Assembly: GCF_035084215.1 (NCBI RefSeq)
Contig: NC_090350.1
Location: forward strand, 15,872,001 to 15,936,000
Length of the DNA stretch: 64,000 bases
Source of the DNA: Heptranchias perlo
Taxonomy: Eukaryota
Direction of reading: 5' to 3'
This document shows positions 16,284 through 19,200 of this stretch, in pieces (within the stretch, counting starts at the first letter, position 1; each line of letters opens with the position of its first letter). The position numbers and the translations under genes were made by a program. The notes under the pieces were generated by a model. The model saw only the letters and a program-made list of their open reading frames with translations, did not search any database and was not told the DNA's origin.

Positions 16284-19200
16284 TTAGTAATCCTGTGTAA
16301 GTAATGAAAAAGTAAAATTTACATCACAAATCAAAGAAGTGTTCCATGTATTTTCTCAGCTAGGCACTTATGTCCAGAACAGATAAGATAAGCTAGGAAT
16401 TAAGGGTCCAACGATTATATATTGAAGTACTGTTGAAAGTTAAAGATTCAATTTGAACGTAAAATGCCCAATGCCCTGTTTATATTACTAAACTGAAGAA
16501 TTTAATACAAGATTAATTCCATAACTGCACATCAAGTTTTGCTTAATCGACTCTGAATCAGATTCCTTCTATCCTGACACCATTATACATTATAGTTCTA
16601 AAGCAAGAAAATCTCACCTGTGTATATGCTATTTTCAGTTCATACGCAGTTGTAGTCTGGATGTAAAATTTGTTACATTAACATACTTAAATGGTGACAC
16701 ATGTAGTACAGTGTTCACTACTTTGTGCAGTACAGTTTATACAAAGGACAGCACATTAAGTCATTATTTAAAACAATTATTCCTTCCTTCCAGACACGTG
16801 CCTTCGACTCATCTGCTCCACAGAACAGGGATCTCTCCTGCTGGTCACAGGGAGACTTGTTCCAATGGAGTTTTCTATTTAAAATATATTTTCTTTTTGC
16901 TTAACATAACAGAATCACTGGTCTCCCAATGAGAGCTGTTCTTGGGGCTAACCCATCAAATGTTAAATTACAAATGTTACAATCAGCTATCTTGCATCAA
17001 CATCTACACCAGACGATTCTATTTGAAGTCAGTTTCATTATGTCAGCTCATACCACACTGTTACCCCACAAAATTGTAAAAAATACCACAAGAAAAAAAA
17101 TTACAAGAATTCATACTCACAGTTCTTGGTTTTTTATTCAGCTTGATATCAATCCTGTAATTAAACAGAAGAATTATACCGTGGAAACCAGCTACAGCTT
17201 CTTTAAAATCACAACACTTACCATCTATTGATATTGAACAGCAACACTAAAAACATCAAACCACTTCAGTTACAGGACAGTCTAATTTTTCTGTCTTTGC
17301 TATGTAAATAAAGATTAAACAGTTGTCTCTCTGCAACTGGTTGCTTTATTTCAAACTGCCCAATGCTCAACTTACCCCACTAAAAGGAAACTTGTACAAA
17401 CTGATGCTGAAAAACCTTTCATTGTGGCAGCTTTCCAAATTGAAATTCATGTGCCCCAGCATGCAAAGAGGTGAATTTGATGATTGCTAGGCCAATCACC
17501 GAGATTAAGAACTCATTTGAGGTCCAGAAGGTCTTGTTCTCCTGTTTAAAACAGAGAGTAGGAATAAATGGGTCATTTTCAGGTTGGCAGGTTGTAACTA
17601 GTGGGGAGCTGCAAGGATCAGTGCTGGGGCCTCAGCTCTATAGAAAAGCAGAATATTTTTTTTAAAAGGTGAGACTAAGAAATGTTGGTAGTCAGAGGGA
17701 TTTGGGTGTCCTTTTACAGAATCACAGAAAGTTAACATGCAGGTACAGCAAGCAATTAGGAAGGCAAATAGTATGTTAGCCTTTATTGCAAGGGGGTTGG
17801 AGTATAAAAGTACGGAGGTCTTTCTGCAATTATATAGGGCTCTTGAGAGACCACACCTGGAGTACTGTGTAGTACAGTTCTGGCCTCCTTACCTAAGGAA
17901 GGATATACTTGTCTTAGAGGGGGTGCCACAATAATTCACTAGATTGATTCCTGGGATGAGAGGGTTGTCCTATGAGGAGAGATTGAGTGGAATGGGCCTA
18001 TCTTCTCTAGAGTTTAGAAGAATGCGAGGTGCCCTCTTTCAAACATGTAAAATCTTAGAGGGATTGATAGGGTAGTTGCTGAGAGGCTGTTTCCCCTGGC
18101 TGGAGAGTTTAGATCTAGAGGTCATAGTCTCAAGATAAGGAGTCTGGGCTGGATTTGATTCAAGAGGTGGACAGAGTATGCAAACCCATGAGGCAAGCCA
18201 TATTTTCCTGTAGTATTTCAAAATGGCGACTTGTTAACTATCCCATCTTTATCTCTCGCAGTTCCAGTCTTACAGATCTCATGACAGAGCATCATCATTC
18301 TCATCCTTCTCATTAACAGGTCCACAGGAAATAACGGCAGCTGATGCATGACAGTGAAATATAATCTGTGCTCATCCACTTATTCTGATGTAAACTACAC
18401 TATTCATAAACTTCAAACATGCTAGCTTAAAATACAAAAAGGTTAATTGCCAAAAAATGTAACATTAGAAACCAAATTCTTCAGTCATCCATTCCATATC
18501 TTTGGCTTGTTTTGTCTCCGATTACTGAAAGGTCTTAAGCTTTGATAATAAAGATAAAAGAGATGCTAAGTTTACAGTTGAGAACCTGTGGAGCATTATC
18601 AGTACCCAAAATCCTGTCCATTTGTAAACTGTAGTTACGTGCCAGGGTCATGGATGTCACTGAGCGGCTACAGGGCATTCTCAAGGGGGAGGGTGAGCAG
18701 GCAGAGGTCGTGGTCCACATTGGGACCAACGACATAGGTAGGAAGGGAGATGAGGTCCTGCATCAAGAATTTAGGGAGCTAGGTAGCAGATTAAAGAGCA
18801 GGACCTCAAAGGTTGTAATCTCTGGATTACTCCCAGTGCCACGGGCTAGTGAGTATAGAAATAGGAGGATAGAACAGATGAATGCGTGGCTAAAGAGTTG
18901 GTGCAGGAGGGAGGGTTTCAGTTTCCTGGATCACTGGGCCTGCTTCTGGGGAAGGTGGGACTTGTACAAGTCGGACGGGTTGCACCTGAACCAGAGCGGG
19001 ACAAATATCCTTGCGGGGAGGTTTGCTAGCACTGTTGGGGGGGGTTTAAACTAACTTGGCAGGGGGATGGGATACAGAGTGGAGCTACAATAGGGGGTGA
19101 TGTGCAGCCAAATATAGAGAAAAAAACCTGTCAGCTTGGAAGACAGGGCAAATATGTAAGGGCAAGGCTGGATGGCATCTATTTTAATGCAAGGAGTCTT

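What the first reader, a model, noticed from the sequence alone, without database searches (positions are those of the whole stretch)
19027..19110. CR1 LINE ORF1/ORF2 junction looks like a programmed -1 ribosomal frameshift site
Seen: ORF1 ends GGT TTA AAC TAA, placing the heptamer U_UUA_AAC (19045-19051) in the correct register just before its stop. ORF2 is in the -1 frame and is open only from 19030, a 25-nt overlap that just covers the heptamer. It has no ATG until 19480, after the NARSL and TETWL endonuclease motifs. G-tracts follow (GG-CA-GGGGG-AT-GGG...GG...GGGGG). Established: UUUAAAC is a canonical X_XXY_YYZ slippery site, as in coronaviruses, whereas the best-studied LINE ORF2 proteins are made by reinitiation-type mechanisms. 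Inference: this element makes an esterase-ORF1/APE-RT fusion by -1 slippage, perhaps stimulated by the adjacent stop or a G-quadruplex. I do not know whether this has been shown for CR1.
Basis: partly seen in the sequence, partly recalled or inferred. Interest (0 to 1): 0.78.

Follow-up and report, generated by a model that had tools for sequence, protein, structure and literature searches.

The report
Slippery frameshift site in vertebrate CR1
A very common jumping gene of vertebrates (a CR1-type LINE) ends its first gene with the same seven-letter slippery sequence and a stop in sharks, bony fish, amphibians and reptiles, so its copying enzyme is most likely made when ribosomes slip back one base, as in retroviruses; this has not been shown by experiment.

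Summary
Observation confirmed. A 5'-truncated CR1 copy (about 18638-22058) ends ORF1 (esterase) with in-register TTTAAAC (19045-51) plus TAA. The intact APE-RT ORF2 lies in the -1 frame, is closed by a stop at 19027 and has no ATG until codon 151. The signal is family-wide: a distant metagenome relative (L001, 48% identity) has the same layout, and 19 of 20 complete junctions seen in a published vertebrate consensus library carry the heptamer (17 were found by the motif itself; searches anchored on other motifs gave 5 of 5 and 4 of 5). Fifteen synonymous variants hit no CR1 junction. The stop and the preceding residue vary; the heptamer does not. No 3' hairpin was found, but a G-run starts 11 nt after the heptamer in sharks, crocodilians and L001. 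Best reading: programmed -1 frameshift giving an esterase-APE-RT fusion (0.75). Main rival: termination-reinitiation; 3 of 20 rows have TAATG. The G-quadruplex idea is not supported in L001. No translation data exist here. No paper found proposes this for CR1, but the original CR1 papers could not be read. The scan reported the same reading earlier on another genome (e1-8041403).

The parts
18632..18637 (+). 5' copy of a possible 6-bp target-site duplication (TAGTTA)
   Evidence: same hexamer at both ends of the element; short, so tentative
18638..19054 (+). 3' part of CR1 ORF1 (SGNH/GDSL esterase), 5'-truncated; ends L-N-stop
   Evidence: profile matches the ZfL2-1 ORF1 esterase 4C1B at E 1.6e-34
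19027..19029 (+). [quoted passage not shown]
   Evidence: a stop at the same place in L001 and, read by eye, in 11 published rows
19042..19048 (+). second in-register heptamer G_GGT_TTA, overlapping the main one; only in lineages with Gly before Leu
19045..19051 (+). slippery heptamer T_TTA_AAC, proposed -1 shift site
19052..19054 (+). ORF1 stop directly 3' of the heptamer (TAA here; TAG and TGA in relatives)
19062..19071 (+). G-rich motif GGGGG-AT-GGG starting 11 nt 3' of the heptamer; candidate stimulator or Gly-Asp-Gly linker codons
   Evidence: subfamilies diverge right after 19072 (loose ends)
19051..21972 (+). ORF2 as entered by a -1 shift (973 codons): variable linker, APE endonuclease (19183-19794), reverse transcriptase (20641-21318)
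19480..19482 (+). first in-frame ATG of ORF2, inside the endonuclease domain
21973..22060 (+). 3' UTR with a short repeated tail, and the 3' copy of the possible target-site duplication (22055-22060)

Best explanation
Canonical vertebrate CR1 LINEs make ORF2 protein by programmed -1 ribosomal frameshifting at the last two ORF1 codons. Shown: the heptamer, its register, the adjacent stop, the -1 AUG-less ORF2 and their conservation. Inferred: ribosomes carrying Leu-tRNA on UUA and Asn-tRNA on AAC slip back one base to UUU and AAA; most stop at the next codon and release ORF1p, a minority continue into ORF2 and make an esterase-APE-RT fusion, like Gag-Pol. More weakly inferred: with no stable 3' hairpin, the pause comes from slow termination at the adjacent stop and/or the G-run at +11. 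This copy lacks its 5' end and is unlikely to be translated itself (inference); the mechanism belongs to the source elements.
For: (1) U_UUA_AAC fits X_XXY_YYZ (PMC3542737) and is named among the most shift-prone heptamers on mammalian ribosomes (PMC5009743). (2) 21 of 43 ORF1 homologues reach the aligned end in frame and all 21 have L-N there; the residue before is one of 8 types, none of them K, E, Q, M or W, which lack T-ending codons (weak alone). (3) L001, 48% identical, has TTTAAAC-TAG, ORF2 in -1, a 25-nt overlap, first Met after the first endonuclease motif. (4) Published consensus rows (PMC13343379 supplement, first 400 characters only): 17 of 23 motif hits are ORF1 ends; DGLH-anchored search 5 of 5 rows that reach the junction; endonuclease-anchored search 4 of 5; 15 synonymous-variant terms gave 47 places, 43 shown, 0 at a CR1 ORF1 end. 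Stop is TAA, TAG or TGA. (5) Four runs (19 to 11,492 contigs laid): none of the 40 listed substitutions lies in 19042-19079, while 12 of the 21 listed ORF1 ones are at third codon positions; none of 12 indel rows lies in 18943-19118. (6) A godwit ORF2 model reads F-K-L in frame with the endonuclease with no Met between (P0175). (7) L-N is not needed by the fold: the ZfL2-1 esterase and seven L2-type relatives end differently.
Against: No translation evidence at all. No canonical stimulatory structure: z +1.50, +0.07 (window) and -0.24, +0.66 (L001), no Rfam match, no long-range partner better than controls. The G-run is missing in 4 of 20 published rows. EubMac_CR1-1 lacks the heptamer, in low-confidence letters. 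3 of 20 rows have TAATG, the SART1-type stop-start. Several predicted ORF2 proteins begin with Met 21-57 residues before the first endonuclease motif (P0044-P0047, P0049), though gene callers write Met for GTG and TTG too. In one search, 100 of 140 substitution rows were not shown, so invariance there is not proven. Published rows drop bases, so their frames could not be checked (PogVit_CR1-2 is off by one as printed). Human L1 ORF2 is made without its AUG by an unknown initiation, so an AUG-less ORF2 does not by itself imply frameshifting.
Confidence: 0.75

Rival explanations
1. Termination-reinitiation: ribosomes stop at the ORF1 stop and restart in the -1 frame at or near the overlapping codon, on AUG where TAATG exists and without AUG elsewhere (as proposed for human L1), giving a separate ORF2p. 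The conserved block would be a reinitiation signal.
For: SART1 uses UAAUG stop-start coupling (PMC3708506; PMC10275272). 3 of 20 published rows have TAATG with the ATG in the -1 frame. L1 ORF2 initiation is AUG-independent. No frameshift-type structure was found.
Against: 17 of 20 rows and the window and L001 lack TAATG; the codon at that place also reads ACT, ATT, GTT, GTG, GTA, GGT, AGC, GAA, most not near-cognate starts. Reinitiation gives no reason to fix T_TTA_AAC at silent positions. In this copy the next six ATGs after the stop are out of frame.
Confidence: 0.15
2. The heptamer and G-run are kept for another RNA- or DNA-level role (packaging, ORF1p binding, internal promoter), or are a by-product of protein constraint, and ORF2 starts from a lineage-specific AUG or near-cognate codon in the linker.
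For: Some lineages have a Met in the linker; near-cognate GTG 19102 and CTG 19168 lie in frame here. GGG is 40% of Gly codons in this ORF2 and 15 runs of five or more G occur in the element.
Against: Linker Met positions differ (21, 39, 40, 44, 57 residues before the motif). Such roles would not tie the motif to the codon register and to the stop. Silent-site conservation exceeds protein need (about 0.01 per lineage).
Confidence: 0.07
3. A spliced or internally started RNA carries ORF2, using CTAAC as branch point and the AG at 19061-19062 as acceptor.
For: The window reads like a branch-point motif followed by AG (consensus recalled).
Against: Only about 9 nt separate the two and there is no pyrimidine tract; crocodilian rows have no AG before the G-run; none of the 7 joints listed ends at 19062; the spliced RNA would still lack an AUG.
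Confidence: 0.03

Closest known systems
Canonical vertebrate CR1 LINEs with esterase ORF1 (type IVB of PMC4120745; Canonical-CR1 of PMC13343379)
   Same: Esterase ORF1, APE-RT ORF2, 5' truncation, short repeated 3' tail.
   Different: Neither paper's main text holds the word frameshift; how ORF2 is translated is not described there.
Dictyostelium TRE5-A and TRE3-A (APE-type non-LTR elements)
   Same: A review legend states both require a -1 frameshift for ORF2 (PMC5911963, passage).
   Different: Other clade, amoeba host, no esterase noted. I did not see their shift site or the primary evidence.
Viral -1 frameshifting at X_XXY_YYZ, such as IBV U_UUA_AAC
   Same: Identical heptamer and register; enzyme ORF in -1.
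   Different: Viral sites have a stimulatory RNA structure 5-9 nt downstream; none is predicted here, and a stop follows the heptamer directly.
PRRSV nsp2 protein-stimulated -1/-2 frameshift (nsp1-beta with PCBP)
   Same: No RNA structure, and a short conserved motif 11 nt downstream of the shift site (PMC7939443, passage); the CR1 G-run starts at the same distance.
   Different: That motif is C-rich and its binding proteins are known; here it is G-rich and no factor was tested. Resemblance only.
SART1 UAAUG and human L1 ORF2 reinitiation
   Same: Bicistronic LINE RNA; ORF2 depends on the ORF1 end; TAATG in 3 of 20 rows.
   Different: They give a separate ORF2p and need no slippery heptamer.

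Membership tests
Canonical vertebrate CR1 LINE | ORF2 with APE endonuclease then reverse transcriptase | tested here: met
   Pfam PF03372 and PF00078
Canonical vertebrate CR1 LINE | SGNH esterase ORF1 | tested here: met
Canonical vertebrate CR1 LINE | RT phylogeny places it in the CR1 clade | not tested
   no tree built; assignment rests on the likeness of the junction region to published shark and ray CR1 rows, read by eye
Canonical vertebrate CR1 LINE | Short repeated 3' tail instead of poly(A), and 5' truncation | tested here: met
   the tail as a CR1 trait is partly recalled
Canonical eukaryotic -1 programmed frameshift | X_XXY_YYZ heptamer in register inside a 0/-1 overlap | tested here: met
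Canonical eukaryotic -1 programmed frameshift | Heptamer conserved at silent positions | tested here: met
   one exception in low-confidence letters; not all variant combinations were searched
Canonical eukaryotic -1 programmed frameshift | Stimulatory stem-loop or pseudoknot 5-9 nt downstream | tested here: not met
   no fold better than shuffles in window or L001; pseudoknots not modelled; no Rfam match
Canonical eukaryotic -1 programmed frameshift | Transframe product made in cells or lysate | not testable with these tools
   needs reporter, ribosome profiling or mass spectrometry
G-quadruplex-stimulated frameshift | Conserved four-tract quadruplex downstream | tested here: not met
   two-tier G4 predicted in the window (G4Hunter-type score 1.28, not among the highest in the element), none in L001
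UAAUG stop-start reinitiation (SART1 type) | AUG overlapping the ORF1 stop | tested here: not met
   absent in the window and L001; present in 3 of 20 published rows
Protein-stimulated frameshift (arterivirus type) | Protein binding to a motif 11 nt downstream is required | not testable with these tools
   only the spacing was seen

The most novel reading that the evidence does not exclude
Canonical CR1, a dominant LINE group of vertebrates, has kept since the jawed-vertebrate ancestor a structure-free -1 frameshift cassette: slippery heptamer, adjacent stop and a G-run 11 nt downstream that is read by a protein (a host G-tract binder or ORF1p itself). It would set the ratio of ORF1p to a Gag-Pol-like esterase-APE-RT fusion and would be a cellular-genome counterpart of arterivirus protein-stimulated frameshifting. 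Fish L2 elements with the same esterase may reach a similar fusion by UGA readthrough.
Probability: 0.3. Interest if true: 0.85.

Novelty: new variant of a known kind. Interest (0 to 1): 0.7.

Why it matters
How LINE ORF2 proteins are translated is an open question (PMC3708506, PMC5009743). CR1-group elements are described as the dominant retrotransposon in most vertebrate species (PMC13343379 abstract). If true, canonical CR1 makes its enzyme as a fusion to ORF1p, so ORF2 annotations that start at an internal Met are wrong, the esterase would be tethered to the reverse transcriptase, and a short, testable recoding cassette without an RNA structure is available. Natural G-rich frameshift stimulators were described as anticipated but unknown in the 2016 review.

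Tried and rejected
No whole genome is held for this window, and the window has only this one junction. Viral contigs: exact junction pattern 0 hits, ORF1 and APE protein scans 0, two degenerate patterns gave 6 loci, none encoding either ORF. Prokaryote genomes: 1 irrelevant hit. Metagenomes: 50 loci, 1 CR1 junction (L001), 7 L2-like, the other 42 without an ORF2 match. ORF2 N-terminal homologue search: 0 of 47 candidates. Sequencing runs: no RNA holder listed. 3' hairpin, Rfam family and long-range pairing of the G-run: none. Supplements of PMC7140322, PMC8665684 and PMC4316615 gave no junction (file 1 of the last was not searchable, and its two shown hits lie in the 3' part of ORF2). TURBS-like UGGGA 5' of the stop: present at 18957 but it is the Trp-Asp codon pair, and it was not tested across lineages (TURBS detail recalled). 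Splice-acceptor reading rejected (see rivals). Supplement rows were read by eye only, so no frame or spacing statistic was computed on them; bird and turtle junctions were not seen at DNA level.

Full report
Observation. The coordinates are right. ORF1 ends GGT TTA AAC TAA, with TTTAAAC at 19045-19051 in X_XXY_YYZ register and the stop at 19052-19054. ORF2 is open from 19030 to 21972 in the -1 frame behind a TAG at 19027. Its first ATG is codon 151 (19480), inside the endonuclease domain, and 12 out-of-frame ATGs come before it. Pfam gives an SGNH esterase for ORF1 and APE plus RT for ORF2. The copy starts inside ORF1 at about 18638, ends near 22058 in a short repeated tail, and has TAGTTA at both ends: a young, 5'-truncated insertion (inference). 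The nearest named ORF1 homologues are from rays, so the host is probably a cartilaginous fish (inference). A second in-register heptamer, G_GGT_TTA, overlaps at 19042-19048.

Within the family. No genome was held, so I laid contigs of four runs from four organism codes on 18850-19300 at 80% likeness (5,931, 19, 11,492 and 40 contigs; X1 may be the source sample). Of 140 substitution rows 40 were shown: 21 in ORF1 up to 19041 (12 at third codon positions), 19 from 19080 on, none between 19042 and 19079. None of the 12 indel rows lies between 18943 and 19118, so no change in the G8 run reached the 3% listing level. One X11 contig spans the whole stretch without gaps, and one X18 contig spans 19004-19212 without gaps. 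All four runs have loose ends at 19071-19072: other subfamilies match through the G-rich motif and then diverge.

Across vertebrates. Of 43 ORF1 homologues, 21 reach the aligned end in frame and all 21 have L-N there (19 stop after it, 2 read on); the other 22 are cut short or leave the frame earlier. The residue before L-N is G in 13, T in 2, and V, N, H, C, Y, D once each. L001 (48% identical; its ORF1 end matches a sturgeon protein, P0023) has CAT TTA AAC TAG, ORF2 in -1, the same 25-nt overlap and its first Met after the first endonuclease motif. The consensus library of PMC13343379 could be searched only in the first 400 characters of each row. The motif had 23 hits, 17 at an ORF1 end and 6 elsewhere; by my reading of the labels these cover chimaera, sharks, rays, bowfin, a teleost, coelacanth, a frog and crocodilians. 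That search is circular, so I ran others. Anchored on D-G-L-H codons: 6 rows, 5 reach the junction, 5 have the heptamer. Anchored on the endonuclease motif: 11 rows, 5 show the whole junction, 4 have it; EubMac_CR1-1 does not, in low-confidence letters. These sets overlap with the 17. Fifteen terms for silent variants gave 47 places, 43 shown, none at a CR1 ORF1 end; not every combination was searched. A lizard row keeps the heptamer before TGA. In all, 19 of 20 complete junctions carry it, and one more row begins inside it. From this element's codon use the three silent choices have a joint chance of about 0.01 per lineage. The fold does not need L-N: the solved ZfL2-1 esterase and seven L2-like loci end otherwise. 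A godwit gene model has F-K-L in frame with the endonuclease and no Met between; this is protein-level evidence only.

Stimulator. No 3' structure beats shuffles in the window or L001, Rfam has no match, and the G-run has no partner in the element better than 15 control queries. A two-tier G4 is predicted here but not in L001. What recurs is a G-run: it begins 11 nt after the heptamer in the window, L001 and 6 published rows (three shark or ray, three crocodilian); of the 20 rows that show the 3' side, 16 have a run of four or more G within 3-13 nt and 4 have none (read by eye; rows drop bases). GGGGATGGG had 9 hits, 7 in CR1 rows, all at the junction. The base before the Gly codon is G whether the codon reads Gln, Lys, Pro or Leu, which points to an RNA-level role, but G-runs are common in this element (15 runs) and a Gly-rich linker could explain part. 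PRRSV's protein-bound motif lies 11 nt downstream of its shift site; that is a resemblance, not a test. A -1-frame stop 15 nt upstream also recurs (window, L001, 11 rows by eye; absent in 2 low-confidence rows) and rules out an upstream AUG for ORF2 in those elements.

Mechanism. Best reading (0.75): tandem -1 slippage at U_UUA_AAC gives a minority esterase-APE-RT fusion, with the adjacent stop and perhaps the G-run supplying the pause. The anatomy and conservation are shown; slippage, product and stimulator are inferred. Against it: no translation data, no canonical structure, one row without the heptamer, TAATG in 3 of 20 rows, and predicted ORF2 proteins with a Met 21-57 residues before the first motif, including an NCBI stingray model. 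Termination-reinitiation (0.15) has precedent in SART1 and L1 but does not explain silent-site conservation. Other roles or linker starts 0.07; splicing 0.03.

Literature. Ten searches listed no paper whose title or abstract start proposes this for CR1; most listed papers were not opened. Seen as passages: PMC5009743 (first 300,000 of 449,034 characters; no CR1), PMC3708506, PMC4120745, PMC3905857, PMC4255032, PMC6609765, PMC5911963, PMC7939443, PMC10275272, PMC3542737. PMC13343379: passages, section 15 and cut supplement rows; no 'frameshift' in text or searchable supplement. Supplement searches only: PMC7140322, PMC4316615, PMC8665684. PMC11835228 appeared in listings and was not opened. PMC5911963 says TRE5-A and TRE3-A require a -1 frameshift, so frameshifting in a LINE is not new in kind. 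Kapitonov and Jurka 2003 and Kajikawa 1997 were not held and Haas 1997 was not tried. I recall that the turtle CR1 paper described overlapping ORFs and it may have suggested frameshifting, so prior mention is quite possible. Uncut supplement rows could change the counts above.

Earlier scan notes. e1-8041403 reached the same reading on another genome and gave the TRE5-A lead; e1-7814081 reports a like junction in a Penelope element and says parts are in print. They are not counted as evidence.

Verdict. Real feature; a CR1 element; probably a conserved -1 frameshift with a non-canonical stimulator; new variant of a known kind; interest 0.70.

Noticed in passing
L002:2608, L003:1322, L004:1794, L005:531, L006:1134, L011:398, L019:176: Seven L2-like esterase LINE loci end ORF1 with TGA, 6 of 7 followed by C (UGAC is called leaky in PMC3542737), with the same frame open for 70-1031 codons; in L002 and L011 the first Met lies after the first endonuclease motif. 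Possible stop readthrough giving a like fusion.
   Followed up: partly
window 19027-19029; L001:1107-1109: A -1-frame stop 15 nt before the heptamer recurs across lineages although the ORF1 codons differ; it may guard ORF2 from upstream slips.
   Followed up: partly
window 19128-19129: CT here reads AA in nearly all laid depth of runs X1, X14 and X18: a change private to this copy, not altering the frame.
   Followed up: no
window 17537-18105, 26507-26884, 41134-41648, 43020-43226, 63020-63958 (+); 23260-23463, 37941-38087 (-): Decayed 3' fragments of other CR1-like copies.
   Followed up: no
window 41967-43022 (-): Reverse-transcriptase region only 27% identical to this ORF2: a LINE of another clade.
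   Followed up: no
window 47882-51490: Tandem arrays: 25-nt units, then about 86 copies of a 28-nt GA-rich unit causing strong strand skew.
   Followed up: no
P0016, P0175, P0150: A CR1 ORF1 piece is filed under Proteus mirabilis (likely host contamination) and bird CR1 ORF2 pieces are named 'mitochondrial fission process protein 1': annotation errors.
   Followed up: no
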